IMG/VR virus record: IMGVR_UViG_3300028800_000005
Span: 32,001-96,000 of that record
DNA from: a virus
Reading direction: 5' to 3' (one strand)
Length of the DNA: 64,000 nucleotides
The translations under genes were made by a program, and so were the position numbers. Positions 42,403-62,031 of this stretch are shown one piece after another; position 1 is the stretch's first letter, and the number at the start of each line of letters is the position of its first letter. Under the pieces are notes generated by a model, which was not told where the DNA came from, searched no databases, and saw nothing but the letters and a program-made list of their open reading frames with translations.

Positions 42403-42660
42403 ATGAGCGCAACCGAGAACTTGAACGGAGAGCAGTTCTCTGACTGGGCCCGTAGCGCCCTGGACCCTCAGGGACCTCTGCGCCAGGGACTTCAGGAAGA
42501 GTACGCCCAGCGGGGGCCCCGCATGGAGCGCAAGGTCGCGGGACAGCGCGTGGATAACTACTGCACCGGATGCGGCGTCCACCAGCCCGTGAACCCGGGA
42601 ACCTTCAAGTGCCCGACCTGCACCGACAAGGCATACGACCGCATGTCTGCGAGGATCTGA
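42403..42660 (+). CDS. Zinc-ribbon protein with MSATENLNGEQF leader
   Basis: GGGGAG RBS; CTGC..CPTC. Confidence 0.7.
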   Translation: MSATENLNGEQFSDWARSALDPQGPLRQGLQEEYAQRGPRMERKVAGQRVDNYCTGCGVHQPVNPGTFKCPTCTDKAYDRMSARI

Positions 42661-44186: not shown

Positions 44187-44216
44187 TTGACATCGGAGAA
44201 CTAAACGGACTAGCCT
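44187..44216 (+). promoter_or_regulatory. SigA-like promoter
   Basis: TTGACA-N18-TAGCCT; followed by a 54-aa ORF at 44233-44397. Confidence 0.7.
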
Positions 44217-44393
44217 GAAGTCTAGGCATCGAATGGAGCACCACATGATCATCGGCACGGACGTGCACGGGGACGCAGTAGAACTCCCCGTAGAGCTTAG
44301 GGACGAGGGCATCCTCGACTTCGGCTCCGAGCACGCGCTTTGCTGGCACTGGGCCGATGACTTTGTGCTCCGCATTTCTACTGAGGAGCATGA

Positions 44394-45861: not shown

Positions 45862-46892
45862 TGCTGTTTACCGAGATCGCACTGGCGATCGTCGCCGCTG
45901 CATTCCTTTTCATCGACGCCCTGTACATTCGGGAGCGCAAGTGGCGTCGTTACACGGAGTACGTCCTGCGCGAGGAGGCCAAGCATCACAACGACATGAT
46001 GTCGGCCCACCTTGACCTTATCACGCGGTACGAGCGAGTCCAGCACGGGTACGACCAGGGTGTCCTGGAGGGAATGCGGCAGGCGTACGTGAACGTCCGC
46101 GCTACACTGGCCGACGAACTCTTTATCACGGGCGGGACAGACGGGGCGAAGCTCCGTGCGTTCGTCCTTCCCTTGCTGGAGAACCTCGGAACTCACGAGA
46201 CCAAGATCCTGGACGAGATGAAGGGGAACACGAAGGCGCGCGAGGCATTCGAGAAGCACGCGGGGAACACCGAGCCAATCAACATGTTCCCGGGCAATAA
46301 CAAGCCGCAGATAGCACAACCAGTGGAGGATAACTGACATGGACATTCCCGAACTCGGACACTCGGCAGCTCGCGCTCGCCAGGAGTCCCCGAAGGCAAT
46401 TCCCGACGAGGACGACATGAGTCCGCTGTCCCCGCTCCCGGACGTCATTCACGCTGACACGGCGTTCCTCGTCTACAAGACCCCAGACGGTCAGGTTATC
46501 CTGACGGCGGACCTGAACACTCCGGTGTCAGTCCGTCGCGGGCCGCTGAACCACGATATCGTCGGGATGTCACACTGCGTCCTTGAGGACATCCGGCTGA
46601 TGGGTTCCGCCCCGGCAATTGCCCAAACGGTCGTGAACGCGGTTAAGCTGGAGCAGCAGCAGCAGATGGAGCAGATGCAGCAGGCCCAGGTTCTCCAGCA
46701 GATCCAGAAGCAGAAGCAGGGGCACCTGTAATGACCAGTGAAGAGATGCACCTGGATAACGCACTCGCGCGACTGCAAAAGGCGCATGTGTACGACGTCA
46801 GCGCCGAGCTGACCTACGGGCAGGCATACCAGCGGCTAGTCCAAATGGGCCTCCGTCCACAGATCCGACGCAAGTACCGAGGGACTAAGTAA
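45861..46892 (+). CDS. Three hypothetical proteins (45861-46337 with N-terminal TM; 46339-46731 with Gln-rich tail; 46731-46892)
   Basis: RBSs and coupling. Confidence 0.65.
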
Positions 46893-47875
46893 TGATCGAC
46901 CCGCGTTTCTTCGAGAAGGCTGCCTCCGGGCAGCCTGCTCCCTCTACGGAGGGAGGTGCCTCCGGGTACTTCTCCCGGCCAGAGCCGATGCTGGACCCTA
47001 ACCTGTTCGAGAACGGGCGCTTGCGTGAGAAGGTGCGCAATCACCTGCTCGGAACGCTGGTTAACTGGCTAGACGAGACTATGGCTGCCCATGAGATGCA
47101 ATCCTGGCTGCATGTCTGGCTGGCTGGCAGCGGCATCAGTTACCAGTGGGCGGCCAGTCGTGGCAACGGTGACCTTGACGTCCTGTTCGGCGTTAACCTC
47201 GGTAAGTTCCAGGCCGCTAACCATGGCTGGGACTGGTCGGAGGCTGAGACAGCCGCCCAGGTAAACGACGGTATGAAGGAAGGACTCTGGCCGTCGACAG
47301 CACAGACCAGGTTCGGCTTCGGTACCTATGAGGTCACGTACTTCTGGAACCCGGGGACCGGAAGTGACATCAAGAAGATCCACCCGTACGCCGCGTACGA
47401 CCTGGTGAAGGACAAGTGGGCAGTACCCCCTCCGCAGCTCCCAGAGATCCCTGGAGAGCTTTACCCCCAGGACTGGTACATCCAGGCCGGGAAAGACTCC
47501 GAGGCCGCCCTGAGGCTCACACGGGCCTTTAACGAGCATATCCAGAAGTACTCGGACGCAATGCCAGGCTCAATGACCCAGCATAACTCCGGAGCGGCCC
47601 TGAACGGCATCGTCGCGGAGGCGAATAACCTATTCACGGACATGCACACCGGACGCCGTGCCGCCTTCAGCGACCAGGGCCAGGGCTACGGCGACTACGC
47701 TAACTTCCGGTGGCAATTCAATAAGTTGAATGGAGCAGTGCAAGCCCTTTCCCAGATAGCAAACGTTGGTAAGGAAGCGCGGCGGCAACAAGAGACGGAG
47801 CAATGGGGAGCGCCCATCGATGGGGCAGAGATCGCGCTCCGTCGGGCAGTACAACAGTACCGAGGTCGTTTGTGA
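46892..47875 (+). CDS. Pol-beta-superfamily nucleotidyltransferase
   Basis: WLAGSGISYQW...GDLDVLF. Confidence 0.8.
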   Translation: MIDPRFFEKAASGQPAPSTEGGASGYFSRPEPMLDPNLFENGRLREKVRNHLLGTLVNWLDETMAAHEMQSWLHVWLAGSGISYQWAASRGNGDLDVLFGVNLGKFQAANHGWDWSEAETAAQVNDGMKEGLWPSTAQTRFGFGTYEVTYFWNPGTGSDIKKIHPYAAYDLVKDKWAVPPPQLPEIPGELYPQDWYIQAGKDSEAALRLTRAFNEHIQKYSDAMPGSMTQHNSGAALNGIVAEANNLFTDMHTGRRAAFSDQGQGYGDYANFRWQFNKLNGAVQALSQIANVGKEARRQQETEQWGAPIDGAEIALRRAVQQYRGRL

Positions 47876-47894
47876 GTGAAGAGGTCTTGCAGGT

Positions 47895-48356
47895 ATGAGG
47901 AAGACATTCGTCATCCCGGTCGAGGGTGTTATTCGCAAGGTAACAGACGGCCAGCCTATTGTGCAGATGGTAGAGCTTATCAGCTCGTTCGCCGGGGAGA
48001 ACACGTTCATCTACCTGACCGACGAGGCTGCCAATGACACCGCTGACTGGCTGAACCTCCACGGCCTTGGGCACACGCTTGTCCTCGGGCGTGATGCTGA
48101 CCGGCTGATGCAGCTTCGCCGTATTCAGCATGAGTGGGGATATAACGTAGACTTCGTTATCGAGCCCGATCCTGAGGTTGTCGCGAAGCTCGTCGAGCAC
48201 GGTTACCCGGTTCTAGCTTTCTTCCACCCGTACTATTCAAAGCGCGAGTGGAGACCAGATTACAAGTTCGAGGTCACCCCCTGGGACGACATCAAGGAAG
48301 GCATCGTGAAGCAGCAGGCAATGCGCGCGAACGACAGCCGCACACGGAGCGAGTAA
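47895..48356 (+). CDS. HAD-like protein (degenerate motif I)
   Basis: FVIPVEGVI, YLT, WL..HGL, FVIEPDP. Confidence 0.6.
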   Translation: MRKTFVIPVEGVIRKVTDGQPIVQMVELISSFAGENTFIYLTDEAANDTADWLNLHGLGHTLVLGRDADRLMQLRRIQHEWGYNVDFVIEPDPEVVAKLVEHGYPVLAFFHPYYSKREWRPDYKFEVTPWDDIKEGIVKQQAMRANDSRTRSE

Positions 48357-49858
48357 TGTTGCTGTACATGGCAGGTGCCGAGAATAACGAGTGGAGGAAC
48401 TTTCTCTCTGACCTCGGTGTCGAGTACGTCTCGATGTCCTTCGTCGGCCTGTCAAAGCGCGTAAAGGGCACGGCGAAGTGGTCGATTGCCTCGCACTTCG
48501 AGGGGCAGCATGTTCTCCTTGACGCTGGCGGGTACTCATTCAACAAGAAGGACTCCACCGCGACCGAGGAAGAGGCGATGGAGACAGCGAACGCTTACAT
48601 GGCGTTCGTCACCCAGAACATTGACGCGGTCGACCTTGTTACTGAGTTCGACGCGAATATACTCGGCCGTGACTGGCTGCTGGCGATGCGAGAGGATTTC
48701 TATGACGACCTCGGGGACAAGTTTTGCCCAGTATGGCATGAAGACACCAGTACAACGGAACTGGAACGACTCGCGAGCCGCTACGCGCATGTGGGAGTCC
48801 TGGCTTCAGGACTTGACGAGCACCTTGTGCCTATACTCAATGGATTGGTATCGCGTTACGGTGTCAAGTTCCACGGTCTAGGCATCACCGCGACAAAGAC
48901 CTCGTTGTGCCAGGCGGTGAAGTGGGACTCGATCGGCTCCAAGAGCTGGATCTCACCGTCCATCGACGGCGATACTATCATCTGGACCGGGCAGGAGCTG
49001 AAGCGCTACCCGGCTAAGCTTAAGGACCAGGCCAGGCGACGCCACAAGAGCTACCTGGAGCGTCAGGGCTTTGACGCCGACAAGATAGTAGGGGACGACC
49101 GCAAGGAGGTTCTACGGCTCTCTGTGTGGTCCTGGCAGCAGTTCATGGAGTCGCTCGCACATGCCAGGGTGTTCAATCCTTTCGGTGGTGGCCCTATCGG
49201 AGTTACTCCCCAGGGTGATAACGGGGATACTGAAAATGAGGAACGGCATGTAGACGGTGTTGATCACCCTGTGCCTGACCCGGGGAACCGTGGGTTGCTC
49301 CCCGCCGTCGTCGAACGACGTGATCCCGTGCTCCTGCCGGTCATGGGAATCGAGGTAATCACCAATAAGTCCGAGGACGAAGATGGTGAGGATTTCGAGG
49401 AGCGGGTCGTAACCACGCCCGCAAAAGCACCCTTGATGCAGTGCAACACATGCCACATCAGGGACAATTGCCCGAAGGCAAAAGCGAACGCTGAGTGTGC
49501 CTACGAGATACCGATCCAGGTAACCTCGAAGAACCAGATGCGCAGGCTTCAGGACGCGCTGATTGAGATGCAATACCAGCGTGCGGCGCGGATGGTGATG
49601 TTCGAGCAGGCCCTTGGCGGATACTCAGACCAGAATGCATCGGCCGAGATAGACAGGCTTCAGAAGCTGATTAACGCCAAGCGTGAGGCAGAGAAGACAG
49701 GCTTCACCCTCCACATGGAGGCACACGACGACAAGGGCGTTGGCGTCATGAGCCGGGTGTTTGGTCGCGACGCGGGCGACGCTGTCACGGCTCTCCCTGA
49801 GGTTGTCGACGCCACACAGTACATTGAAGCCGAGATCGTAAACGAGACGGAAGAGTAA
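48356..49858 (+). CDS. TGT/DpdA-like TIM-barrel protein fused to a Cys4 zinc finger and helical C-terminal domain
   Basis: LYMAG, VLLDAGGYSF, EFD, PVWH, FHGLG, WDSIGSKSW; CNTC..CP..C; helical region ending GVMSRVFG. Confidence 0.6.
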   Translation: MLLYMAGAENNEWRNFLSDLGVEYVSMSFVGLSKRVKGTAKWSIASHFEGQHVLLDAGGYSFNKKDSTATEEEAMETANAYMAFVTQNIDAVDLVTEFDANILGRDWLLAMREDFYDDLGDKFCPVWHEDTSTTELERLASRYAHVGVLASGLDEHLVPILNGLVSRYGVKFHGLGITATKTSLCQAVKWDSIGSKSWISPSIDGDTIIWTGQELKRYPAKLKDQARRRHKSYLERQGFDADKIVGDDRKEVLRLSVWSWQQFMESLAHARVFNPFGGGPIGVTPQGDNGDTENEERHVDGVDHPVPDPGNRGLLPAVVERRDPVLLPVMGIEVITNKSEDEDGEDFEERVVTTPAKAPLMQCNTCHIRDNCPKAKANAECAYEIPIQVTSKNQMRRLQDALIEMQYQRAARMVMFEQALGGYSDQNASAEIDRLQKLINAKREAEKTGFTLHMEAHDDKGVGVMSRVFGRDAGDAVTALPEVVDATQYIEAEIVNETEE

Positions 49859-49867
49859 CTCCCCAAC

Positions 49868-50026
49868 GTGCGTATTCCTAACAACGGTCCCCTGGAGGGC
49901 GAGACTCAGGTCTGCCCCCGCTGCAAGGGCACCGGGTTCACGGACCAGTATGACGAGGACGTCTGCCTTACGTGTCTGGGGGAGGGCGAGGTCCCTGTGC
50001 TCCAGGTCACACGGAAGACACCCTAG
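49868..50026 (+). CDS. Small DnaJ-type zinc-finger protein (not in ORF track)
   Basis: CPRCKGTG..CLTCLGEG. Confidence 0.6.
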   Translation: MRIPNNGPLEGETQVCPRCKGTGFTDQYDEDVCLTCLGEGEVPVLQVTRKTP

Positions 50027-50031
50027 ATCTG

Positions 50032-50061
50032 TTGCCAGCACCCCCATCGGCCGACTAGACT
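50032..50061 (+). promoter_or_regulatory. SigA-like promoter
   Basis: TTGCCA-N18-TAGACT. Confidence 0.65.
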
Positions 50062-50083
50062 GGAGTTGTCGGAAGGGGACACC

Positions 50084-51316
50084 ATGGACACCGCAGTCAC
50101 CACTGAGGCACCAGAAGTGCAGGCCGACCGCTGGCTGTACCGGCTGAACGACCAGGAGCTGGTCGACACCCGCGAGAAGATCGCCAAGATGAACGCACGG
50201 GCTGCCAAGCGCGGCCTGGCTGGTGAGCTGACCGTCTCGGCCGTGAAGGTCCGCCAGACGCGCAAGCTACCGAGCGGCTTCGAGATCACCGAGTCCTGGT
50301 GGGACACTGAGATCCTCGGTGCAGCTCCCCAGTACAACGGGTGGAAGTTCATCGCTAGCCTGGACTTCGACCCGGCTGCTGGCCTGATCACCAAGACGAT
50401 CCCCGGCCTGGCAGGCAAGATCGACCGCAGCAAGCTGCAAGACAACTGGTGTGACCACTGCAAGACCAGCCGGTTCCGTCGACTGGCCTACCTCCTGGAG
50501 AGTGCGACCGGCGAGCGACTGCAAGTCGGCAGCACGTGCATCAAGGACTTCCTCGGCCAGGCGGTGCGTCCCGTGTTCACCAGTGAGGACACCATTCGCG
50601 AGGAGTTCGGCGGCTTCGGTGCCTCTGACTACGACGTCACCCCGCTGGACGTGCTCGCTATCGCGTGGGCCGCAGTTCAGGAGTTCGGTTTCGTCCGCTC
50701 TGGTGACTACGACGACGTCCCGACCAAGCGGCGCATCGATCAGGTTCTGTACCCGGCCAGCAAGGGCCAGGCTGCCATCGACGACCGGGCCCTGGGTGAG
50801 AGGCTCCGTCCGCTGGCTGCCAAGGCTGCCGAGCAGGCCAAGCTGATTCAGTCCTACATCCTCAGCGACGAGTTCAGCGGCGACAGTGAGTACGTTCAGA
50901 ACCTCAAGCAGATCGCCGGGGCCGAGCGGGTCGGCCGGAGGTTCTTCGGTCTCCTCGCTAGCGCGCCGCAGGCGTGGGCCAAGTCGGTCGAGCGGGACCT
51001 GCGCCGCCAGGCCGAGCAGGCTGAGATCAAGAACGAGTTCTTCGGCTACGTCAAGGACAGGATTGAGCTTACCGTCCGCATCAAGTCCATCCGCTACTTC
51101 GATGGAGCCTACGGGACCACCACCTTGTACACCCTGGTTACCGACGACGGTCACCTGGCGCAATGGTGGGCATCCAATTCCGCACTGGGAAATGAGGTCA
51201 CCAATCACAGCTACCTAGTCAAGGCCACGATCAAGGGCCACGAAGATTACCAGGACACCAAGTACACAAAGCTCACGCGGGTCACTGTCCTAGAAGACAT
51301 CCCCGGAGAGGAGTAA
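50084..51316 (+). CDS. Conserved-type phage protein with zinc finger and C-terminal OB-fold
   Basis: CDHC..R.R..QVGSTCIKDFLG; FG..K.R.E..YG..W..S..V.ATIK.H..Y...T.L.R. Confidence 0.7.
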   Translation: MDTAVTTEAPEVQADRWLYRLNDQELVDTREKIAKMNARAAKRGLAGELTVSAVKVRQTRKLPSGFEITESWWDTEILGAAPQYNGWKFIASLDFDPAAGLITKTIPGLAGKIDRSKLQDNWCDHCKTSRFRRLAYLLESATGERLQVGSTCIKDFLGQAVRPVFTSEDTIREEFGGFGASDYDVTPLDVLAIAWAAVQEFGFVRSGDYDDVPTKRRIDQVLYPASKGQAAIDDRALGERLRPLAAKAAEQAKLIQSYILSDEFSGDSEYVQNLKQIAGAERVGRRFFGLLASAPQAWAKSVERDLRRQAEQAEIKNEFFGYVKDRIELTVRIKSIRYFDGAYGTTTLYTLVTDDGHLAQWWASNSALGNEVTNHSYLVKATIKGHEDYQDTKYTKLTRVTVLEDIPGEE

Positions 51317-51557
51317 GAATGCAGGCAGCACAGCCAGACAGCCGGTACGCTTACCGGCTAGTCTGCGGAGACATAGGCCTTGGTTCAAAGGACCTATCGG
51401 AGCACGACCACCTGTTTTGCGCAGTTCACCGGAATTATGAGCGCATCGCAGGGTTCGGCATCAGGTGGAGCAGGCTCCAGGCTGAAGCCGCAAGTGAGAG
51501 TGCCAGTGTTGTCTAGGTAGGAGGTGATCCTCTATCTCCCCTGTCGGAGGGGTAATT

Positions 51558-51587
51558 TCGACAACACGATCCGGTCCCCGGTATACT
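51558..51587 (+). promoter_or_regulatory. SigA-like promoter
   Basis: TCGACA-N18-TATACT. Confidence 0.65.
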
Positions 51588-51614
51588 GGGGATCGGATCA
51601 TTTATTGGAGGAAC

Positions 51615-51845
51615 ATGGACGTCAACGACTACATCAGGGGCCTTTCGGACCAGGATCTGAAGAAGGAGATCCGCCGTCGTAACGAAGAGGTCGCGCGTGA
51701 GGCCCGTGAGTGGATGGAACGGGAGTACCGGGAGCGGCAGGCTGTACGGGCCGGTGCCAGGTCTGAGTTCTGCGCGGCACAGGGTATCACACCGGAGCAG
51801 TTCGAGGCCGTCGAAGACTACCTGGACGAAGAAGCGAATTCGTAA
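51615..51845 (+). CDS. Small hypothetical protein
   Basis: GGAGG RBS. Confidence 0.7.
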   Translation: MDVNDYIRGLSDQDLKKEIRRRNEEVAREAREWMEREYRERQAVRAGARSEFCAAQGITPEQFEAVEDYLDEEANS

Positions 51846-52396
51846 TGCTCTCTGACCTACCGCAGCCAGGAACAATCGGGCTAACTGCGATCGACGGCCA
51901 GGTCGGCAAGGCAATTCACTTCCTGCAATGGCTGAATGAGAACCCGTTCAAGAACTGGTTCAAGAAGAACACCGACCCGAACTATGAGCATGTCGTGCTC
52001 TACCTCGGCGCGACGAAAGAATACCCTGAGGGTGCACTGCTTGAGGCTGAGCCCGGCGGCTCAAGGATTCGCTCGGTAGAGGAATACTCGGAGATCTACT
52101 GGTGCACGCGCATCGCGTGGAAGTTCTACAAGGCACTGCCCCTGATCGCGAACGAGGCTAAGCGTGACACCGGCATCCCGTACTCGTTCCTTGACTACCT
52201 GGCGCTTACGCTCCGGCGAATGCACTTCTGGTTCCCAGGGATGCGCAGGTATCTCAAGGCCATTGGGCACCAGATCTGCTCCCAGCTAGCTGTCTGGGAG
52301 TACGAGAAGCACGGCTGTTACCTGTTCCCACACGAGTGGGCCGGGGATGAAACGCCGATGGATATCTACTACCTGGATCAGAAACTAGGAAAGTAA
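51845..52396 (+). CDS. Permuted papain-like (NlpC/P60, YiiX-type) amidase
   Basis: YEHVVLYLG..LEAEPGG..GIPY..ICSQL..TP.D. Confidence 0.8.
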   Translation: MLSDLPQPGTIGLTAIDGQVGKAIHFLQWLNENPFKNWFKKNTDPNYEHVVLYLGATKEYPEGALLEAEPGGSRIRSVEEYSEIYWCTRIAWKFYKALPLIANEAKRDTGIPYSFLDYLALTLRRMHFWFPGMRRYLKAIGHQICSQLAVWEYEKHGCYLFPHEWAGDETPMDIYYLDQKLGK

Positions 52397-53056
52397 TGGC
52401 ACTACTCGATTACAAGCCGCAGGGCAAGGGCACACTGGGAAGCTACGTCCGCTTCGCCCCTGGGGAGATCGACCACGCCGTCGATGCCCCGGGGCTTGGC
52501 GTCATCACATATTACGGGACCAGGCGACGAGGTGAGTACGTCGACATCACGGCCGATAACATGAAGGCTATAGAGCTTGTCCCTGGCATGGAGGCCGAGC
52601 AGGATAACGGCAAGGCCCAGACGTTGTCACGAATGCCCAAGGATTTCTCGCAGGAGCAGCGTGAGGTTACCTGGTACGCACTTCTGGGAGGCCGACGTGC
52701 CAGGCACTGAGCAGGCGCAAGGGTGGGGCATGGGCGCGTACGCGATGTGGGGTGCGAGCGCGTTTACTAAGCATAGTCTCATGGCTGATGTTACCCCCAG
52801 CGCGTCTAGCCCGGGGCTGCGTGAGATCTACTGCTGGCAGTGCGGGACGCTGGCCCTTAGGACGTACTCGTACCAGACGACGTACACCTGCAAGGTCTGT
52901 GAATGCTCAGGCAAGCTGACTCCAGATGAAGGGCGGAAGTCGTTCACTGACCCGAGGACGACCAATATGTTCCGTGGGGTGACGACGGTGACTCACGAAC
53001 GGTACCTGGACTTCGGTGACCCTGAGGTGTCCAGGATGAACGGCAGCCCGGCTTGA
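52396..53056 (+). CDS. Two hypothetical proteins (52396-52710; 52697-53056 with zinc finger)
   Basis: Coupling; CWQC..CKVC. Confidence 0.6.
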
Positions 53057-53066
53057 CCCACCTTAC

Positions 53067-53099
53067 AACCCCCTCTGTACGGCCCAGAGGGGGTTTTTT
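53067..53099 (+). terminator. Rho-independent terminator
   Basis: AACCCCCTCTG-tacggcc-CAGAGGGGGTT followed by a T-run. Confidence 0.88.
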
Positions 53100-53113
53100 C
53101 ATGCCCTCTTATT

Positions 53114-53144
53114 TTGCGTTCAGCAGGACGCGGGCGGGTATGAT
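53114..53144 (+). promoter_or_regulatory. Promoter for a probably leaderless transcript opening the ART operon
   Basis: TTGCGT-N19-TATGAT, 6 nt before ATG 53151. Confidence 0.55.
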
Positions 53145-53150
53145 TGTGGT

Positions 53151-53378
53151 ATGCCCATAGACGTCGACTGGTCCCACCGGCACCACATGGTCAAGTGCCC
53201 TGTGTGCCACGTGCTGCACTGTGCTTGCCAGTGCCCGCGTGACCGCTGGCGCTACGACATTGTTGTCCGCCGGGCGGCTGACGGGCTGATGTACTGGGAC
53301 GCTAGCGAGCACGCCTGGTGCAAGGTCATAGGCTCGAAGCACGAATCCGACTGGAGGCAGCACATTGAGCGCAACTGA
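53151..53378 (+). CDS. Cys/His-rich small protein
   Basis: CPVCHVLHCACQC. Confidence 0.6.
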   Translation: MPIDVDWSHRHHMVKCPVCHVLHCACQCPRDRWRYDIVVRRAADGLMYWDASEHAWCKVIGSKHESDWRQHIERN

Positions 53379-53568
53379 GGTACTAAGTTCCCTTCAGTTC
53401 AAGAGGCACCCCGTGAGGGCCGCAGCGCAACGTGTGCACGCTGCTGAGAAGCACGCGGCTGGTCGCCTCGGCCACGGTGTCGACCGGGCGCTAGACGCCC
53501 TTGAGGGCCCGCATGACCCAGGGAACTGGAACGATCACCCGGATGACATCGGGGAGATCACACCGTGA
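53365..53568 (+). CDS. Small protein with MSATEVLSSLQF leader
   Basis: GGAGG RBS, TTG start; followed by a 55-aa ORF at 53565-53732. Confidence 0.6.
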   Translation: MSATEVLSSLQFKRHPVRAAAQRVHAAEKHAAGRLGHGVDRALDALEGPHDPGNWNDHPDDIGEITP

Positions 53569-53728
53569 CTGAGGATCGTGACCAGGCGGCCCTGACCCTG
53601 CTGAAGATGATGTCCGAGCTGAACTTCGACCAGATAGCGTTCCTCGTCGGTTACATGACTATCAAGGACATCGACCTCGCAGCCAGGGCAATGACAGCAC
53701 TCCAGTTCACCGACGTCGGGCAGGTCAA

Positions 53729-54103
53729 ATGAGCGCACAAGAGAATTTGAATCCTCAGCAGTTCTATCATGGTTCTAACCAGGAGTTCAAGCCAGGTGAC
53801 ATGCTGACTCCTGCGGGCGGTAAAGCCCACGCTGACTCCTGGGATAACAAGGATTACTCGCCGGGAGAGTACGTCCACACGACGCTTGACCCAGGGACGG
53901 CACATCTTGTCGCGGGGCGAAAGAACGATTACGAAGGGCTAGGTCACGTCTACACGGTAGAGCATACCGGCCCGGTAGAAGAGGACAAGTCGATGAACGC
54001 CGACATGCAGTCCGCCGGAGCGAGGAACTTCCGCACCAAGAGCCCTGTACGTGTCACCGGGGAAGATCATGACTGGTGGGAACGCCAGCAGAGGGGCGTG
54101 TAA
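53729..54103 (+). CDS. Arr-like ADP-ribosyltransferase 1
   Basis: FYHGS..F.PGD.L.P..VHTT..VY.VE.TGPVEED..FRT..PVRV.GE. Confidence 0.8.
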   Translation: MSAQENLNPQQFYHGSNQEFKPGDMLTPAGGKAHADSWDNKDYSPGEYVHTTLDPGTAHLVAGRKNDYEGLGHVYTVEHTGPVEEDKSMNADMQSAGARNFRTKSPVRVTGEDHDWWERQQRGV

Positions 54104-54381
54104 TGGCAGCCACAGATAACCTGAATCCCCACCAGTTCTACCACGGGTCGGACCATAAGTTCGGCCGAGGGGCAATGGTGAAGCCAGGGCATGCCCCGCT
54201 GAATTCACCGTCCCCTGAGGAGCACGCTTACTTCGCGCGGACGCCGGAAGAGGCAGAGGGATACGGAAGGTACGTCCATGCGGTAAACCCGACAGGGGAC
54301 TACGAGGACGACCCTAACGCACAGGGGGCACTGCGCTCACGTGATCCCCTGCGCGTCCGGTATACCCACTCGACGTCCTAA
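54103..54381 (+). CDS. Arr-like ADP-ribosyltransferase 2
   Basis: FYHGS..V.PG..HAYF..V.PTG.YEDDPN..RSRDPLRV. Confidence 0.82.
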   Translation: MAATDNLNPHQFYHGSDHKFGRGAMVKPGHAPLNSPSPEEHAYFARTPEEAEGYGRYVHAVNPTGDYEDDPNAQGALRSRDPLRVRYTHSTS

Positions 54382-54738
54382 ATGAATTCGGGAGTGTAAT
54401 GGCAGCGCAAGATAACCTGAATAAGAAGCAGTTCTACCACGGTACTAGCGCTGCCCTGAAGCCTGGCGATTACCTGTCTCCCAAGGGCGCTAATGAGTTC
54501 GGCAGGCATGAGACGGAGAGCGGGAGAAGCCACGTCTACGCAACACTCGATGAGGACACAGCGTGGGGGTACGCCATAGACCATGCAGGGTCCGTCGACC
54601 GGGCTCACGTCTACCAGGTTCAGCCAACGGGGAAGACAGAGCCCGACCCGAATGCCGGTGAGTACCCGGCTATAAGGACACGCGCTCGCATGAAGGTCAC
54701 ACGGGAACTGGCCTACTAGCGCTAAATGAATTCGGGAG
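54378..54738. repeat. 17-bp exact direct repeat flanking ART gene 3
   Basis: CTAAATGAATTCGGGAG at 54378-54394 and 54722-54738. Confidence 0.9.
54399..54719 (+). CDS. Arr-like ADP-ribosyltransferase 3
   Basis: FYHGTSAALKPGD.L..HVYAT..A.GYA..VY.V.PTG..E.DPN..RT. Confidence 0.85.
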   Translation: MAAQDNLNKKQFYHGTSAALKPGDYLSPKGANEFGRHETESGRSHVYATLDEDTAWGYAIDHAGSVDRAHVYQVQPTGKTEPDPNAGEYPAIRTRARMKVTRELAY

Positions 54739-54750
54739 ATAGCAGGTTAC

Positions 54751-54912
54751 CTAAAGCTCCCTGCCGTCCAGGCTATGGTGAACGTACAGCCAGCCGTATG
54801 ACCCGTCATCCCGGTGAACCGGATTCAAAGTCGGCCCGCAGGGACAGTCCTCTGTTACCTCATGCCGGATAATATCATCCAGGGGGTGGACGTGGAGCGT
54901 GTCGTCATCCAT
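54751..54912 (-). CDS. 53-aa His/Cys-rich protein (not in ORF track)
   Basis: MDDDTLHVHPLDDIIRHEVTEDCPCGPTLNPVHRDDGSYGWLYVHHSLDGREL; has its own promoter. Confidence 0.75.
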   Translation of the reverse strand: MDDDTLHVHPLDDIIRHEVTEDCPCGPTLNPVHRDDGSYGWLYVHHSLDGREL

Positions 54913-54918
54913 GGCCCT

Positions 54919-54948
54919 AGCCTATGCCGGTAGCCTGTGCTAAGTCAA
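54919..54948 (-). promoter_or_regulatory. Leaderless SigA-like promoter
   Basis: TTGACT-N18-TAGGCT on the minus strand, 6 nt before the ATG at 54912. Confidence 0.7.
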
Positions 54949-55335
54949 AATGAATTTGGGCGGGGGAGATAGCCCAAGGGTAGCGCACACACATAGTGCA
55001 TACACACCACGCACCACACTCCCAGGGGTGTCAGGAGAGTATCACCACCAGGTATACCCTCCCTCACACCTACTCCCCACCCTCCCATACCCTGTCACCT
55101 AATTAATTTGGCGAGGGGGGATATGCAGACTGACACCCCCCATACTATGTACTTGGAACCATCATGCTCAGGAGAGTAACTGTACACCCCTGATACCCTC
55201 CCTCAGCCTATGGTCCTTGGGTAAATTAATTTGGGCGGGCGGGGAGTCCAGGGGACTACCACTATTAGCTATACACATAGGGATGGGCTAAGGCACCGGG
55301 ACCAGGAGTAACTATGCGGTCACTCCTACCCCTCT
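54947..55335. repeat. Three degenerate ~135-bp tandem units
   Basis: AAT(G/T)AATTTGG plus G-run boxes at about 54947, 55099 and 55222; CAGGAG(AG)TA..TACCC boxes at about 55031, 55168 and 55302. Confidence 0.7.
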
Positions 55336-55370
55336 GGTCTAGCTACTCCCCAGTGTCCACTACCCTGTCT

Positions 55371-55690
55371 CACCTGGACCGGCAAATGTGCAAAGCACAT
55401 TATGTCGTCCAGGTGGCCGCTTGTGGCCTCGAATTCGGGGATTTATCCCCGTATTCGCGCTGTTCACGACCAAATCTCGTAGATTTGTTCGAGAACACCC
55501 TTGTAATTACTAATTGCGCAAGCTTATTAGTAATTACTGCACTGCCATGCCCCTGGCACCGGACTGGCCACGAAATAGTAATTTCGGCGGCCAGGCCGAT
55601 GGCCAGTGGTACAGGCGACACGTGTATGTACTGCATTATCCCGCGCGCTGCGCGGAATAGATTGGTATAGGCACTCGGTAATTCCGAGGG
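55371..55690 (+). other. Array of back-to-back hairpins (candidate structured RNA or terminal DNA structure)
   Basis: About nine inverted repeats, most directly adjacent; listed in the findings. Confidence 0.6.
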
Positions 55691-55880
55691 GGGGTACCCT
55701 TTAACGGCTTTTCCCTGGATTAGCGCGGCCAGGAAATCGGGATGAACAGCCAGCGGGACTCCGGGACAGTGGCTACAGGCAGGATCTTAAATCGGTAATT
55801 CCGGGCAGTGGCCCCTATCGGTGCACCCGGATCACGACTGGATAGCCCCCCTAATTCGGAATTAAGGCTCTGATATTGTT

Positions 55881-55910
55881 TTGCGGGGCCGCCGGGGACC
55901 GTGGTAAGAT
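55881..55910 (+). promoter_or_regulatory. Early SigA-like promoter
   Basis: TTGCGG-N18-TAAGAT with extended -10 TG. Similar promoters at 56249 (TTGCGC-N17-TAAGCT), 56532 (TTGACG-N18-TAGTCT) and 56751 (TTGACG-N17-TAAACT). Confidence 0.65.
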
Positions 55911-55936
55911 CGGTGTACACACAGACAGGAGACCGT

Positions 55937-58869
55937 ATGTACATCGCACTTTCAATTCCGCCCCGCCCGGGACGCCCGGACGGCGTCATGCTTCTGACCC
56001 AGGCGGCGACCTACTCGACCGACTCGGCCGGGACCCTCCACATGTACAGGATGCGCGAGTACCGTGAAGACGTTCCTTGCCAGTATGGCGGGTACCACAC
56101 GGTCACCCGGACGGAGCCGGAGGAGTTCCTTACGCTCCCCCGGGGCGCGTACGAGGCGGTCCTCGCCGGGGACACGCGCGAGGAGAGGGACCTCCTGGTC
56201 TCGATGTTCACCGCGAGGGAACCTCAGGGGTAACCCATAATTCGGAATTTGCGCGTCCCGCATGCCCCTGGTAAGCTCAGGGGGTACCTAGACAGGGAGG
56301 GCACATGGGTTTCAGCAGGCCGAACGTAGCTCAGGACGCCAGGGCCCGCTATGAGGCAGGCCACACGATCCTGGCCGTCACCCACGACTGCGGCATGAAG
56401 GTCGACACGGAGGTCTTCGCTAACATCATCGAGGATGCCGAGAGGGAAGGCTGGCACCTGGAGCACATCTACCAGGCACCAGGACGGCAGCTCATGATCT
56501 TCCGGCGCGCACGGTAACCCCTAATCTCGATTTGACGGTCCTGCGGAGGCGTTGTTAGTCTTGGATCTTCACAAGGACCAGGACGGGAGAACCGGAATGC
56601 TAGCAAAGGAAGAGGCGGTCGCGATGACCGTCATCACGATCTGCGGTATCGGCTGCAAGCCGGTATCTGCCGGGAAGCGCGACGAGATCCAGGAGGTTCT
56701 TGACGCGCTCTGGGAGAACGGACGCCAGAACGGGCTCGCTGAGGCGCAGCTTGACGAGGGCCCCGGGACCGGCTAAACTGAGGGCTAGGAGGAATTATGG
56801 CACACTACGACGAGATGAAGTCCGAGGAAGACCTTCGCCGCGATAACGCGGTCGCCCTGGCCCTGCGCGAGATCGACCGGGCGCGCATTTCCGGCGTCTC
56901 TGCGGTCCCGGCCCTGGAGCAGCTCTTTAACTACGGCGAGGAGACCGGGTACGACCAGGCCGTCCGCGACGTCGCGGAGGGGATATCCAAGCTAGGGAGC
57001 GGGCGCTGATGACTACCGTGAACCGCGAGGACGCGACAGCGATCCTGGTCTCCAAGGGCTACTCAGGCGACGAGGCCAGGAAGATCCTTGACGAGGCGAG
57101 GGTTTACGGGACGGCCCTGACCGTCCCGCGCGACTGCCCTAGCCTCTGGGTCACCTCCTGGTACCAGGGGTCGGTCGTACCGGCCTACCGGATTCAGGAA
57201 AACGACTCCGGCGAGGAGGTTACCTTCTGATGGACTTCGAGACCAGCAGGGACCCGGACCAGGCTGTCCACTTTACCGCCAGGAAGCTGCAGGACATCCT
57301 CGGCGTGGAAGTTCCCCCGGCGTACCGCTCGAAGTTCTACGCGGCCCTTCGGAACCTTCGCCAGTCCGGGTACACCACCGGCTGGGACGACGCCGAACAG
57401 CTTGGAGATAACTGATGTACAGCGTATTCATCCGCCGGAACAGGATTCGCCAGGAGCCGGAATGGCTTCTCCGCGCGAGGACAGACGAGAGGTACGAGGC
57501 GTGGGACCGCGCCCAGAAGCTCGCGGACGCCTACCAGTACCACGTCCGGGTCACCGACCCTGACGGTTCCGTGGTCTCCGAGATAATTCCGGCGTAATTC
57601 CGATTTTACCGTACCCTCGGGGAAGCCCCTCGGGGAGTCAGGAGGAGAAATGGGCGATCACACGGAGCAGTATTACCGGATAGGAAAGAAATACGTCCGG
57701 CAGCAACTGGCTAAGGTCCTTACCGAGTCCCGCAGTGAGGTGACGGCCTCGGGGATCATCCAGGCCCTTGACCATGTCGCGGAAGAGATGGGCCTGGAGA
57801 AGAAGACCGTGGTCCGGACCTACTACACCAGTAACGAGGAGGAGTAATGAACCGGGAGCACGCGCTGAACACCGCAATCCAGCTTCTTTTCGGGGACCAG
57901 GTGACTGAGTCCCAGGAGAGCATCCTGTCCGACCTCTATGAGAAGGGGGTCCGTGACGGCCAGTCGCTGAAGGTCACCGGGGGATGGGTCAATGAGTTTT
58001 CCGACCTCGAATGGCAGCCCCTCGGTGAGTTCCCCCCGCTGGACGGTCCCTACTTCAGCCGGATGACTGAGACCGGGGAATGGGCCAGGGAGACAATTTC
58101 CACCCTGCAGGCCGAAGCGGACGCTTACCGTATCTACGGGCGCACCCTGGACGGTGCCTGATGGCGACAGAGGGCGCGGTCGCCCAGTACGAGGCCGGTT
58201 GGAACGCCGCCATGAACCAGGTTCTCAGGGCCCTGAACGACGCCCGGTGGGGATTTCACAGCGAGGAGTACATGAGGGCCCTGGACGACCTCGCGGCGGA
58301 CCTGTCCTTCCGCCGGACAGTTATCGCGGTCAGGTACGACCTGTAATGACACCTGTCCAGTCACCGGGAATAGAGGTTTCCGCCCTCCCGGACTACGACG
58401 AGGCTATCCCGTGCCAGTGCCGGTGGCTGGTGCCCTGGCGCGGTGAGACGTTCGAGTGCGGGGAGCCGTCAGATTTCCGGCTGCGCATCCACTGCGTGAA
58501 CGGCCACGACTACACGACCTTTAACTGCAGGGCCTGTTACGTTACCTGGGCGGCTGACGTCGTCCCGGTAACCTGCCGGGTATGTGATGCCCCCCTGACC
58601 GACTGGAGCACGACATGAGGAACTTCATCCGGAGCGCGCGGGTATATGTCCAGGGCTGGATTGAGACCCTGGACATCCGCTTCCGCTCTCCCGAGACCTA
58701 CCGGGCCCTGAAAGAGAACAAGCTCGCGGGTCCTGAGAAATTTGCGGAGGTCTCCCGGCCTGCGGCACCCTACTGGCTGGACCGCCCGACAAACGAGCAG
58801 GTCCGGCGGAACTACGCTCTCAGCGACGAGGAGGTAGAGGAGCTTCTGAACCACTTCCGCCGCCAGTAA
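55937..58869 (+). CDS. Run of 12 small early-type hypothetical proteins (55937-56233, 56305-56517, 56597-56776, 56797-57009, 57009-57230, 57230-57415, 57415-57597, 57650-57847, 57847-58161, 58161-58346, 58346-58618, 58615-58869)
   Basis: Strong RBSs, stop/start coupling and interspersed promoters. Confidence 0.7.
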
Positions 58870-58880
58870 GGTGTCCCGCC

Positions 58881-59446
58881 AGGGCCCCCCGGGTAATTTT
58901 CCCGGAGGGGCCCTTGACTGTCTGCGACGGGGGATGATACGGTCGTAACTCGTCCCGTTCAGGGAGACATAGGAAAGGAAGGAACGAGAGTATGCGAAAG
59001 GTGATTCACGGCCTGGCCCTCGCCGTGGCCACTGCGTCCGTCGCGCTGGCCACTGCTTGCGCCGGGAATAAGCCCCCGCCGACCGCTAAGAGCGTCCTTA
59101 CCGGGGACGGTTACAGCGTTCTGGTGAATGAGTCCCCCAAGGTCATTCACGACAGCTTCGGTGAGGCCGCCCCGTACATCGCCCCTAACGGGGTAGCCGC
59201 CGGGGAGAGGGGAAGCACCCTGGAGCTTGTCATCGTCGCTGACACCAGCGCGGACGCGCAGAATGTCATCTATCCGGCCCTGAGCGGGTCCCTCAAGGGG
59301 GCAGGTGTCTCCTGCTCTCTTGACGGGGTGGTAACCCGCTGCACGGGGCCCGTTACCGCGAACTGGGTAAACGGGGGCCAGTAGGCCCCCTGCAACCCCC
59401 CACAGGGCCCCCCGGGTTTGACGTACCCGGAGGGGCCCTGTAGTGT
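58881..59446 (+). promoter_or_regulatory. Two promoters, each paired with the same GC-rich inverted repeat
   Basis: AGGGCCCCCCGGGT..CCCGGAGGGGCCCT at 58881-58914 and 59404-59439; TTGACT-N18-TACGGT (58914) and TTGACG-N17-TAGTGT (59418). Confidence 0.7.
58992..59384 (+). CDS. Lipoprotein
   Basis: MRK, hydrophobic core, LATAC lipobox-like site. Confidence 0.75.
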   Translation: MRKVIHGLALAVATASVALATACAGNKPPPTAKSVLTGDGYSVLVNESPKVIHDSFGEAAPYIAPNGVAAGERGSTLELVIVADTSADAQNVIYPALSGSLKGAGVSCSLDGVVTRCTGPVTANWVNGGQ

Positions 59447-59487
59447 GGACGGACAGGTAAAAAGAGCGAGTGAGAGGAGAACCTCAG

Positions 59488-60111
59488 ATGATCGCCCTGA
59501 CACCGATTCCGGTACTGCTACTGGCCTCACTTAGTCCGTTCCATATGACCGCACCGCCAGCCGCGCACCACGCACCACCCCCGGCCGCGACCGCCAGGGC
59601 TCACCACGCCCCGGCACCGCACAAGGCGCACAAGGCCCGCGCCAAGGAAACCCCGTACCACGTCTGGGACACCACGGTCCCGTCGAACGTCCCGGCCGGA
59701 AAGCGCGCCGCGTTCTACGCGAACGGCGCTTACGCCGCGACCGTCTCACAGACCGCCGGGCACACCCCGGTCCTGTGGATCGACGTCTTCGGGTCGAACC
59801 CGAACGCTAACGTCGTCGATGTAGAGCCCGGTGACGCGACCGCGTCGCAGGCCGCCGCATGGGCACACGCCCGCGTCGACCTCCACCCCGGCCAGACCGC
59901 GATTATCTACGTCGCTAAGTGCCACTGGCAGGACGTCAAGAACGCCGTCTCTGCCCTACCGAAGCACGTTCAGGATAACGTCCGCTACTGGATCACGGAC
60001 CCGACCGGCGTGGACCATGTCGTCCCCGGCTCGCAGGCGACCCAGTGGCACTGGGACGCGAACGTGGACATCTCAACTGTCCTCCCGTCACTGACGAAGG
60101 CAGGTGCCTGA
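59488..60111 (+). CDS. Secreted GH25-like (TIM-barrel) glycoside hydrolase
   Basis: Hydrophobic N-terminus, His/Pro/Ala linker, WD..FY.NG.Y..DVEPGDA..IY..W..Q..Q..DIS. Confidence 0.6.
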   Translation: MIALTPIPVLLLASLSPFHMTAPPAAHHAPPPAATARAHHAPAPHKAHKARAKETPYHVWDTTVPSNVPAGKRAAFYANGAYAATVSQTAGHTPVLWIDVFGSNPNANVVDVEPGDATASQAAAWAHARVDLHPGQTAIIYVAKCHWQDVKNAVSALPKHVQDNVRYWITDPTGVDHVVPGSQATQWHWDANVDISTVLPSLTKAGA

Positions 60112-61986: not shown

Positions 61987-62031
61987 CCAGTGAAGCGAGA
62001 AGTGCCAGAACTACCGGAAGGAAGTCTACTG

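What the first reader, a model, noticed from the sequence alone, without database searches (positions are those of the whole stretch)
53729..54719. Three tandem, diverged Arr-like ADP-ribosyltransferases in a phage
Seen: three 92-124-aa paralogs carry the Arr signature FYHG[ST]..PG..[YH]..V.[PH]TG..E.D..R[ST]. They keep the NAD-binding His and the acidic motif (copy 1 has His at the Tyr position), but the segments between the motifs differ in length and none has the KxFPGNPT loop of bacterial Arr. Established: Arr is an ADP-ribosyltransferase that inactivates rifamycins. Inference: diversified substrate loops suggest different targets, such as host proteins, nucleic acids or defence molecules. 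Alternatively they shield host RNAP, which this phage's SigA-type promoters need, from rifamycins made by actinomycetes.
Basis: partly seen in the sequence, partly recalled or inferred. Interest (0 to 1): 0.8.

Follow-up and report, generated by a model that had tools for sequence, protein, structure and literature searches.

The report
Tagged mini ADP-ribosyltransferase gene array in phage
An uncultured soil phage carries three side-by-side genes (six in the whole genome) for stripped-down relatives of the rifampicin-inactivating enzyme Arr that lack the drug-binding parts, so they most likely attach ADP-ribose to several different host targets, not to the antibiotic.

Summary
Observation confirmed. 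Window 53729-54103, 54103-54381 and 54399-54719 are three intact, tightly coupled genes of the Arr family (Pfam PF12120: 43.6, 24.7, 48.6 bits; cut-off 25). They are not rifampin-Arr equivalogs (NCBIfam 44/18/42 bits against 130). They lack Arr's lid loop and C-terminal helix, two of the three elements that line the rifamycin pocket.

The 112-kb phage genome holds six such genes (3+2+1). Each is closer to metagenomic homologues than to its own paralogues, so the array holds old, distinct subtypes. The His-Tyr/His-Asp triad is conserved family-wide; length variation sits where Arr binds its acceptor.

Related domains occur 2-8 times per protein in giant polyvalent-type proteins. The stand-alone genes share an 11-residue N-terminal leader that also heads non-ART proteins. 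In a sister phage the same locus carries different genes.

Best reading (0.55): a panel of active mini-ARTs with different, non-rifamycin acceptors, used in host takeover or counter-defence.

Arr-family ARTs in actinophages and multi-copy ARTs in polyvalent proteins are already in print. This scan also noted Arr-like phage mini-ARTs, and the tag, on other DNA. I class it as a new variant of a known kind.

The parts
53067..53095 (+). Intrinsic-terminator-like hairpin (11-bp stem, 7 G-C pairs, T run) closing the upstream unit
53114..53144 (+). Possible SigA-type promoter TTGCGT-19 nt-TATGAT, ending 6 nt before the ATG at 53151 (would give a leaderless mRNA). Read by eye; the scan tool did not list it because the spacer is 19 nt
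   Evidence: sequence; not listed; inference
53151..53378 (+). 75-aa ORF, first gene of the six-gene unit; no Pfam family; conserved in the sister phage (62% in tblastx)
53365..53568 (+). 67-aa ORF (TTG start) with the same N-terminal leader (MSATEVLSSLQF) but no ART body; conserved in the sister phage (54.5% over 66 aa)
53565..53732 (+). 55-aa ORF overlapping both neighbours by 4 nt; no Pfam family
53729..54103 (+). ART copy 1, 124 aa, pI 5.4; His14, Tyr48/His50, Asp86; longest of the three; lid-length loop of unrelated sequence; short C-terminal tail
54103..54381 (+). ART copy 2, 92 aa, pI 6.1; shortest; Pfam 24.7 bits (cut-off 25), but 42-47% identical to family members P0019 and P0093
54399..54719 (+). 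ART copy 3, 106 aa, pI 6.5; His14, Tyr47, Asp83; the Atlas model matches an Arr cluster at TM 0.75
54378..54394 (+). 17-nt direct repeat, left copy, which includes the ribosome-binding site of copy 3
54722..54738 (+). 17-nt direct repeat, right copy, 100% identical, just after the stop of copy 3
42403..42660 (+). 85-aa ORF with the same leader (MSATENLNGEQF) and a CxxC...CxxC body, not an ART

Best explanation
The three genes encode active, minimal NAD+-dependent mono-ADP-ribosyltransferases of the Arr family. They keep the catalytic core (His in strand 1, Tyr or His in the next strand, Asp after the V-x-P-x-G strand). They have lost the lid loop and the C-terminal helix that make Arr a rifamycin-specific enzyme. 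They belong to a large subfamily found so far only in viral and metagenomic sequence. Its members begin with an 11-residue leader (M-S/A-A-x-D/E-N/H-L-N/S-P-x-Q) that runs straight into FYHG. The phage keeps six of them in three places. Each is an old subtype that differs mainly in the three segments which in Arr contact the acceptor. I therefore read the array as a panel of enzymes that transfer ADP-ribose from NAD+ to different acceptors. The acceptors are most likely host proteins such as defence or transcription components, as with T4 Alt/ModA/ModB, AcrIF11 and the multi-ART polyvalent proteins. Shown: homology, conserved triad, missing rifamycin elements, multi-copy habit, age of the paralogues, variability of the locus. 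Inferred: catalytic activity, nature of the acceptors, role in the conflict with the host.
For: Homology and fold: Pfam PF12120. A profile of 137 family members matches ARR-2 at E 4.6e-16 and Arr-ms at 2.6e-14 over Arr-ms 17-114. The Atlas model of copy 3 gives TM 0.75 to an Arr cluster. Triad in the 137-row alignment: His 136; Tyr column Y103/F17/H9/W5; Asp 121. Not rifamycin enzymes: NCBIfam 43.9/18.3/41.7 bits against 130; six-residue deletion at the lid in the profile alignment; the 27-residue C-terminal helix of ARR is absent in all copies. Asn86/Lys91, Leu130/Leu133 and the Phe39 loop line the rifamycin cleft (sections read). Diversified acceptor side: segment lengths range 3-26, 2-51 and 0-30 residues, with a tail of 0-59. 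Old subtypes: for 6 of 6 paralogues the best outside homologue beats the best in-genome paralogue, for example 123 against 56 bits and 201 against 46 bits. Multi-copy habit: 42 long proteins hold 115 such domains, up to 8 in one, together with NUDIX, 2H, GNAT and Lar domains. Of 5 IMG/VR contigs, 3 hold 2-4 matches, though the second match in one of them covers only the leader. The second cluster lies about 700 nt upstream of an ArdC-N plus MPTase-PolyVal gene. The locus is accessory and fast-changing: the sister phage has one ART and other leader genes there. Precedents in print: multi-copy H-Y-D ARTs in polyvalent proteins, predicted to modify host proteins (PMC5512222, section ARTs); AcrIF11 as a phage ART (abstract).
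Against: No activity, target or expression datum exists, and no RNA run is listed. Iyer et al. 2022 place the clade that holds Arr mainly in RNA repair, small-molecule modification and soluble ADP-ribose products, which favours the small-molecule rival. The three proteins are acidic to neutral (pI 5.4-6.5), which says little either way. All neighbours in the window are without a Pfam family. The phage has no NUDIX, Macro or 2H gene of its own. Copy 2 falls 0.3 bits under Pfam's cut-off. The sister phage's ART at this locus has Arg where the Asp should be, so not every member need be active.
Confidence: 0.55

Rival explanations
1. They ADP-ribosylate small molecules other than rifamycins, such as anti-phage or antibiotic metabolites of soil actinomycetes or NAD-derived immune signals. 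Each paralogue would handle a different compound.
For: The only characterised family member acts on a small molecule. Iyer et al. 2022 raise exactly this for phage Arr-family ARTs and assign the clade to small-molecule and soluble-ADPr chemistry (section 3.7.4 passage). Variable pocket-lining segments fit varied small ligands as well as proteins. The source is rhizosphere (12 runs, 3 with at least half of the words).
Against: Loss of the lid and of the whole C-terminal helix removes most of the enclosed cleft that holds the drug in Arr. Fusion of related domains into polyvalent proteins with ArdC, MPTase and Lar-type partners points to intracellular host macromolecules. No biosynthetic or transport context is present.
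Confidence: 0.22
2. They are true rifamycin ADP-ribosyltransferases that keep host RNA polymerase working for the phage in rifamycin-containing soil.
For: Family membership. The phage shows no sigma-70 region 2 and no T7-type polymerase match (where the control also found nothing), so it probably depends on host polymerase.
Against: 18-44 bits against the 130-bit equivalog cut-off. The lid and C-terminal helix are missing although they contact the drug. Six diverged copies are not needed for one drug class.
Confidence: 0.05
3. They use or bind NAD+ without transferring ADP-ribose to a specific acceptor, acting as NAD+ glycohydrolases, makers of soluble ADP-ribose products, or binders of NAD-derived signals.
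For: The NAD-binding core is the conserved part. Some relatives lack the Asp (16 of 137 rows; sister-phage ART). Clade-level functions in Iyer 2022 include soluble ADPr derivatives.
Against: Conservation of the Asp in 121 of 137 rows and of the aromatic residue argues for transfer chemistry. Old, stable subtypes with varied acceptor-side segments are not needed for plain NAD+ hydrolysis.
Confidence: 0.12
4. The array is decaying duplicated DNA with no current function.
For: One leader-bearing neighbour of the second cluster (genome C1:106866-107174) matches the family model only in the leader. Copy 3 is flanked by 17-nt repeats.
Against: All three frames are intact, translationally coupled and carry ribosome-binding sites. 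The triad is kept. Identical sequence is seen in contigs of two further runs (X1 and X2, 0 differences). Each copy has conserved outside homologues.
Confidence: 0.03

Closest known systems
Arr, NAD+:rifamycin ADP-ribosyltransferase (Arr-ms, ARR-2; Pfam PF12120; PDB 2hw2, 9iaf, 9iba)
   Same: Same Pfam family and the same small single-domain ART core. His, Tyr and Asp align with Arr-ms His19, Tyr49 and Asp84 (numbering derived; the catalytic role of these residues is recalled from Baysarowich 2008, which is not held).
   Different: The lid loop (Asn86-Lys91, KKLPGNPT) is shortened or replaced. The C-terminal helix (about 27 residues, Leu130/Leu133) is absent. They carry an 11-residue N-terminal leader that Arr lacks. 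They score far below the equivalog cut-off.
Multi-copy H-Y-D ART domains of polyvalent proteins (Iyer, Burroughs, Anand, de Souza, Aravind 2017, PMC5512222; Pfam ART-PolyVal PF18760)
   Same: Small H-Y-D ARTs of phages and mobile elements, present one to many times per element, next to GNAT, ArdC-N and MPTase partners, and predicted to modify host proteins early in invasion. The nearest long relatives here hold 2-8 Arr-like domains.
   Different: Here the domains are separate small genes, not one polypeptide. Pfam assigns them to Arr-ms, not ART-PolyVal. Embedded domains start GP[LFYW]YHG without the leader (97 of 115 looked at).
Arr-family ARTs already noted in actinophages (Iyer et al. 2022, PMC9503650, section 3.7.4: Microbacterium and Gordonia phages, Sinorhizobium phage PBC5); Streptomyces phage TurkishDelight gp70, annotated 'ADP-ribosyltransferase'
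   Same: Phage-borne Arr relatives of actinobacterial hosts. The same two readings (antibiotic or diffusible immune compound) are already in print. gp70 is a 137-aa Arr-like protein.
   Different: The passages read describe no tandem arrays and no leader, and gp70 has no leader. tblastn with 4 queries found no closer relative among 50,697 phage records. Supplements could not be read.
Phage T4 Alt, ModA, ModB
   Same: One phage with several paralogous ARTs that have different targets and timing. That modA and modB are neighbouring genes is recalled. Alt is packed in the head and injected (passage).
   Different: These are R-S-E clade enzymes, larger and unrelated in sequence (passage).
AcrIF11
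   Same: A small phage- and plasmid-borne mono-ART that disables a host defence complex (abstract).
   Different: No sequence match was found here (not among PDB profile matches at E up to 10); different host group.
T4 internal proteins with the capsid targeting sequence (CTS)
   Same: A set of diverse small proteins that share only a short conserved N-terminal sequence and vary between related phages (PMC3012670, section 6 passage).
   Different: Packaging, cleavage and injection are shown for T4. Nothing of the kind is shown for this leader.

Membership tests
Pfam Arr-ms (PF12120) | Score at or above the gathering cut-off of 25 bits | tested here: met
   Copy 1 43.6 bits and copy 3 48.6 bits; copy 2 24.7 bits, just under. 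Copy 2 is 42-47% identical to family members.
Pfam Arr-ms (PF12120) | ART core with His, aromatic (Tyr) and Asp in order | tested here: met
   Alignments. Family columns: His 136 of 137, Tyr column Y103/F17/H9/W5, Asp 121 of 137. For copy 1 the choice between Tyr and His is ambiguous.
Pfam Arr-ms (PF12120) | Arr-like three-dimensional fold | tested here: inconclusive
The Atlas's own model of copy 3 (pTM 0.67) gives TM 0.75 over 95 residues to an Arr cluster. There is no model for copy 2, and copy 1 was not asked.
Rifampin ADP-ribosyltransferase proper (NCBIfam NF033144 equivalog) | Score at or above 130 bits | tested here: not met
   43.9, 18.3 and 41.7 bits.
Rifampin ADP-ribosyltransferase proper | Lid loop over the rifamycin cleft (Asn86-Lys91, KKLPGNPT) | tested here: not met
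   Six-residue deletion in the profile alignment. Copies 2 and 3 are 7-9 residues shorter, and copy 1 has unrelated sequence there.
Rifampin ADP-ribosyltransferase proper | C-terminal helix lining the cleft (Leu130, Leu133) | tested here: not met
   The alignment ends near Arr-ms residues 114-116. Tails of 15, 7 and 6 residues follow the last conserved Val.
Rifampin ADP-ribosyltransferase proper | ADP-ribosylation of rifamycins | not testable with these tools
   Needs an enzyme assay.
ART-PolyVal (PF18760) / polyvalent proteins | Match to PF18760 | tested here: not met
   No match at E up to 1 and none in the genome (the control genomes also gave none).
ART-PolyVal (PF18760) / polyvalent proteins | Several unrelated effector domains fused in one large polypeptide | tested here: not met
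   Stand-alone genes of 92-124 aa. Fused relatives exist elsewhere.
CTS-type tagged virion proteins (T4 internal proteins) | Short conserved N-terminal sequence shared by otherwise unrelated small proteins | tested here: met
   The motif occurs 9 times in the genome, always at or near an N-terminus, against 0.085 +/- 0.28 expected in 200 shuffles. It sits on non-ART bodies.
CTS-type tagged virion proteins (T4 internal proteins) | Packaging into the capsid, cleavage by the head protease, injection | not testable with these tools
   Needs virion proteomics of a cultured relative.

The most novel reading that the evidence does not exclude
The 11-residue leader is a delivery or packaging tag, working like the capsid targeting sequence of T4 internal proteins. 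It would mark a changeable arsenal of small effectors (mini-ARTs, ParB_N-like proteins, zinc-ribbon proteins and others) for loading into the virion and injection with the DNA. The array would then be an 'unbundled' polyvalent protein: the same toolkit that other elements fuse into one giant polypeptide, here split into separately tagged, swappable genes.
Probability: 0.25. Interest if true: 0.85.

Novelty: new variant of a known kind. Interest (0 to 1): 0.6.

Why it matters
Arr is filed as an antibiotic-resistance gene. These data indicate that the rifamycin enzyme is one branch of a much larger family of minimal ARTs (1597 cluster representatives at E up to 0.001). In that family, phages collect several members per genome, and the members lack the drug-binding parts. 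Automatic labels such as 'rifampin ADP-ribosyl transferase' on phage contigs would then overstate resistance carriage. If the paralogues hit different host proteins, they form a ready panel of small, specific protein-modifying enzymes. They would also be probes for unknown actinobacterial defence systems. If the leader is a delivery tag, it would be a general handle for finding injected effectors in actinophages.

Tried and rejected
I used the Atlas's stored model for copy 3 instead. Copy 2 has none.

Cultured relatives. megablast of 53000-55500 against phages gave no match. tblastn with copy 3, copy 1, P0134 and P0053 gave only an integron-type arr on 'Acinetobacter phage' contigs, a weak hit to TurkishDelight gp70 (E 1) and one weak Mycobacterium phage hit. 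In 0 of 4 BRock-like Streptomyces phages and 0 of 1 IMG/VR relative of 82,930 nt was there a family match.

Cellular genomes. Two scans of 185,579 species genomes with leader patterns gave 56 and 16 pattern hits, and none was confirmed. The patterns are narrow, so this does not prove absence.

Companion domains. No NUDIX, Macro or 2H gene in the genome, so the partnership seen in polyvalent relatives is not reproduced here. All 9 neighbours tested around the array have no Pfam family.

Leader-bearing non-ART proteins. 3 of 10 gave only sub-threshold ParB_N matches (16.7-24.4 bits against 26.3). The other 7 gave nothing reliable; two of them had only very weak matches. I suspected a GNAT motif in the sister phage's 136-aa leader protein; Pfam gave nothing, so I dropped it.

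Rfam found nothing in 50000-60000. The promoter scan found nothing convincing near the array (3 sites against 2.1 expected).

Sequencing runs. No RNA holder is listed. In the four runs laid, no contig joins across the 17-nt repeats that flank copy 3. Contigs drop rare variants, so this shows nothing.

The nucleic-acid-target idea rested only on charge (pI 5.4-6.5), which is too weak to count.

Supplements of Iyer 2017 and 2022 could not be read. They may list phage Arr-family members, copy numbers or this leader.

The paper PMC2290778 (Baysarowich 2008) is not held. Residue roles from it are recalled.
Full report
THE OBSERVATION. The window holds three consecutive plus-strand ORFs at 53729-54103 (124 aa), 54103-54381 (92 aa, ATG inside TAATG) and 54399-54719 (106 aa). 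All three match Pfam Arr-ms PF12120: 43.6, 24.7 and 48.6 bits against a cut-off of 25. Copy 1 alone finds the solved ARR-2 (9iba, E 4.2e-8) and Arr-ms (2hw2/9iaf, E 7.1e-7). PHROGs places copies 1 and 3 in phrog_17296 (unknown function) and copy 2 nowhere. The copies are 34-39% identical to each other.

SETTING. The window is bases 32001-96000 of a 112,017-base IMG/VR virus record whose first 100 bases (the longest stretch tested that matched) recur at position 111,910, 108 bases from the end. The genome encodes the following:
- portal, major head protein and tail sheath;
- Baseplate_J, family-A DNA polymerase, DnaB-like helicase and a GTP-type PEP carboxykinase;
- terminase, an ARC/Mpa-type proteasomal ATPase and an Lsr2-type DNA-binding domain.
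The nearest cultured phages are Streptomyces phages BRock, Alone3, LuckySocke, GiJojo and pSt2308, at 42-43% identity in the DNA polymerase. The host is therefore probably an actinomycete. Twelve rhizosphere metagenome runs of 2019 hold the stretch or part of it, 3 of them with at least half of the sampled words.

The array follows a strong terminator-like hairpin (53067-53095). It belongs to six tightly packed ORFs running from 53151 to 54719, with 4-nt, 14-nt or 1-nt overlaps or an 18-nt gap. A possible TTGCGT-19-TATGAT promoter ends 6 nt before the first ATG. I read it by eye; the scan did not list it.

MORE COPIES THAN REPORTED. A search of the whole genome with PF12120 gave six matches. 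A family model built from 137 sequences gave six full-length matches of 93-134 bits. These six sequences were themselves in the model, so the scores are inflated. The three extra copies lie outside the window, at C1:106037-106534 (166 aa with a large insert), C1:106537-106866 (109 aa) and C1:139-531 (130 aa). The second cluster ends about 700 nt before a gene with ArdC-N (99.6 bits) and MPTase-PolyVal (110.4 bits) domains. The single copy lies just before the ARC ATPase, a Peptidase_A4 gene and the terminase.

WHAT THEY KEEP AND WHAT THEY LACK. A profile of 137 family members aligns to ARR-2 (E 4.6e-16) and Arr-ms (E 2.6e-14), but only over Arr-ms residues 17-114 of 143 and with a six-residue deletion at KKLPGN.
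- In an alignment with an integron ARR, the last 27 residues of ARR have no counterpart in any copy. The lid is 7-9 residues shorter in copies 2 and 3 and of unrelated sequence in copy 1.
- A 2026 preprint on Arr-ms (10.64898/2026.05.04.722716; abstract, passages and section 7 read) names the contacts and mobile elements of the rifamycin cleft. They are the backbones of Asn86 and Lys91 on a lid loop, Leu130 and Leu133 in the alpha-2/C-terminal part, and the Phe39 loop between strands 2 and 3.
- My residue count reproduces Phe39, Asn86 and Lys91, so the numbering is sound. Two of the three elements are thus missing, and the third lies in a segment of variable length.
- NCBIfam's equivalog model for rifampin ARR gives 43.9, 18.3 and 41.7 bits against 130.
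- The catalytic side is kept. In the 137-row alignment the His is present in 136 rows, the aromatic position reads Y103/F17/H9/W5, and the Asp is present in 121.
- The Atlas's stored model of copy 3 (pTM 0.67) superposes on an Arr cluster at TM 0.75 over 95 residues.

DIVERSIFICATION. Length variation is concentrated in three segments and the tail: 3-26 residues (contains the Phe39-loop position), 2-51 residues (after helix 1), 0-30 residues (the lid) and 0-59 residues (tail, median 13). For each of the six paralogues, the best homologue from other metagenomes scores higher than the best paralogue in the same genome. The pairs in bits are 123 v 56, 73 v 47, 100 v 56, 63 v 42, 162 v 54 and 201 v 46. 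The array is therefore a collection of old subtypes, not a recent burst of duplication.

A MULTI-COPY HABIT. An exhaustive profile search found 1597 cluster representatives at E up to 0.001.
Together they hold 115 family domains, up to 8 in one protein.
- Six of these long proteins were scanned. Four also carry NUDIX, and some carry 2H/LigT, GNAT or Lar domains; one has a sub-threshold ART-PolyVal match.
- This matches the polyvalent proteins of Iyer et al. 2017. [quoted passage not shown]
- Of 5 IMG/VR contigs carrying the family, 3 hold 2-4 matches, and one has 4 within 3.3 kb. The second match in one contig covers only the leader.

THE LEADER. Stand-alone members start M-[SA]-A-x-[DE]-[NH]-L-[NS]-P-x-Q-F-[YF]-H-G, with Met exactly 11 residues before the F in 92 of 105 proteins.
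- Embedded domains instead read GP[LFYW]YHG, as in ARR-2, with no leader (97 of 115 domains could be examined).
- In this genome the motif [DE][NH][LMIV][NSQG]..Q[FWY] occurs 9 times, always at or near an N-terminus, against 0.085 +/- 0.28 expected in 200 shuffles.
- Four of the nine carriers match the ART model only in the leader or not at all (window 42403, window 53365, C1:106866, C1:111684).
- Codon choice varies within the leader (four Ala codons at position 3, five Leu codons at position 7), so selection acts on the peptide.
- In other IMG/VR contigs the leader heads proteins with sub-threshold ParB_N matches (3 of 10 tested) and proteins with no family.
I checked it independently as above.

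THE LOCUS VARIES BETWEEN SISTER PHAGES. A 112,412-base metagenome contig is syntenic with window 42287-53583 at 40-89% tblastx identity. At the site of the array it has these genes:
- the conserved 66-aa leader protein (54.5% identical over 66 aa);
- a 136-aa leader protein with no Pfam family;
- a single ART (PF12120 35.3 bits), closest to copy 2 at only 47% over 72 residues, with Arg where the Asp should be.
It also has an extra leader-tagged, partly ART-like ORF where the window has a gap of about 170 nt. IMG/VR contigs of the same kind carry another leader ART directly after the major head gene, where this genome has about 90 nt of spacer. Contigs of two further runs reproduce the three-gene array without a difference (X1 54085-55452, X2 53777-55111). 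A more abundant sister-type contig matches only in patches.

MECHANISM. I take the proteins to bind NAD+ through the conserved His/aromatic core and to transfer ADP-ribose, with the Asp assisting, to acceptors chosen by the variable segments.
- With the lid and C-terminal helix gone, the acceptor side should be open. This favours macromolecules, but it is inference.
- The company the family keeps points to host takeover or counter-defence: ArdC-N/MPTase next door here, and polyvalent proteins elsewhere.
- So do the accessory, fast-changing locus and the precedents of T4 Alt/ModA/ModB and AcrIF11 (abstract).
- The main rival is modification of small molecules. Iyer et al. 2022 already proposed it for phage Arr-family ARTs, and it fits their assignment of the clade (PMC9503650, passages).
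- The rifamycin-shield idea is the least likely.

WHAT IS NEW AND WHAT IS NOT. Already in print: Arr-family ARTs in phages of Microbacterium and Gordonia and in Sinorhizobium phage PBC5, the two readings for them, and multi-copy ARTs in polyvalent proteins. A search for 'Arr-like' + phage + ADP-ribosyltransferase found 0 papers. 'Streptomyces phage' + ADP-ribosyltransferase found 7, none of which by title or abstract describes such arrays. Supplements were closed.

This scan has noted Arr-like mini-ARTs in phages on other DNA several times. These include a tagged pair beside a portal gene (e1-3298489) and Arr-like domains inside tape-measure proteins (e1-5893731, e1-5899032). I did not test those notes.

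What this case adds:
- six stand-alone paralogues in one genome;
- the definition of a leader-bearing subfamily without the rifamycin elements;
- its absence from the cultured relatives tested (0 of 4) and from two pattern scans of 185,579 species genomes;
- evidence that the locus is a variable island.

LIMITS. No model of my own, no biochemistry, no expression data and no known host. Family counts rest on the best 150 hits plus the 41. The family model contained the genome's own copies.

Noticed in passing
window 54913-55900: About 1 kb without a convincing gene after the array. It holds five copies of an AAT[GT]AATT[CT]GG motif and several palindromes. A 400-nt part (55300-55700) was aligned with the sister phage; there short islands, including both arms of a 12-nt perfect palindrome and a GGGGAT-TTA-TCCCC hairpin, are identical while the sequence between them differs. 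This could be a regulatory region, an origin or a structured RNA. No Rfam match.
   Followed up: partly
window 54378-54394 and 54722-54738: Identical 17-nt direct repeats bracket ART copy 3, the left one including its ribosome-binding site; they look like a cassette or duplication scar. No contig in four runs joins across them, which proves nothing.
   Followed up: partly
genome C1:598-2115 and 2112-2717 (outside the window): A proteasomal ARC/Mpa-type AAA ATPase (both OB domains, ends in GQYL) followed by a Peptidase_A4 gene, between an ART copy and the terminase.
   Followed up: partly
genome C1:107877-108827 (outside the window): A stand-alone ArdC-N plus MPTase-PolyVal gene about 700 nt after the second ART cluster. 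These are the two hallmark domains of polyvalent proteins, encoded here as a separate gene.
   Followed up: partly
L028 13368-13667 (sister phage): The single ART at the equivalent locus reads YELRG where the family has YE.D, so the catalytic Asp is replaced by Arg. It may be an inactive or re-purposed member.
   Followed up: no
L018 6001-6300 and L019 2006-2305 (IMG/VR contigs): A 100-aa leader-tagged ART sits directly after the major head protein gene (97% identical to this phage's), where this genome has only about 90 nt. It is an insertion in the late structural block.
   Followed up: partly
proteins P0006 and P0051 (metagenome): Two-domain proteins of about 245 aa. In P0006 (the only one read) a trimmed Arr-like domain is followed by a canonical-looking Arr domain with the GNPT lid motif and a C-terminal extension.
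   Followed up: no
window 61990-62436 and genome C1:110855-111229: Two nucleoside 2-deoxyribosyltransferase-like genes (34.2 and 24.4 bits), a superfamily that Iyer et al. 2022 count in the NAD+/ADP-ribose network.
   Followed up: no
window 36006-37937: Full-length GTP-dependent PEP carboxykinase (455 and 305 bits for its two domains) inside the phage genome.
   Followed up: no
L021 21-1201 (IMG/VR contig): Three consecutive leader-tagged genes. Two have GHHR-type ParB_N-like bodies (sub-threshold). They lie upstream of an ART, between head and tail-sheath genes of a relative.
   Followed up: partly
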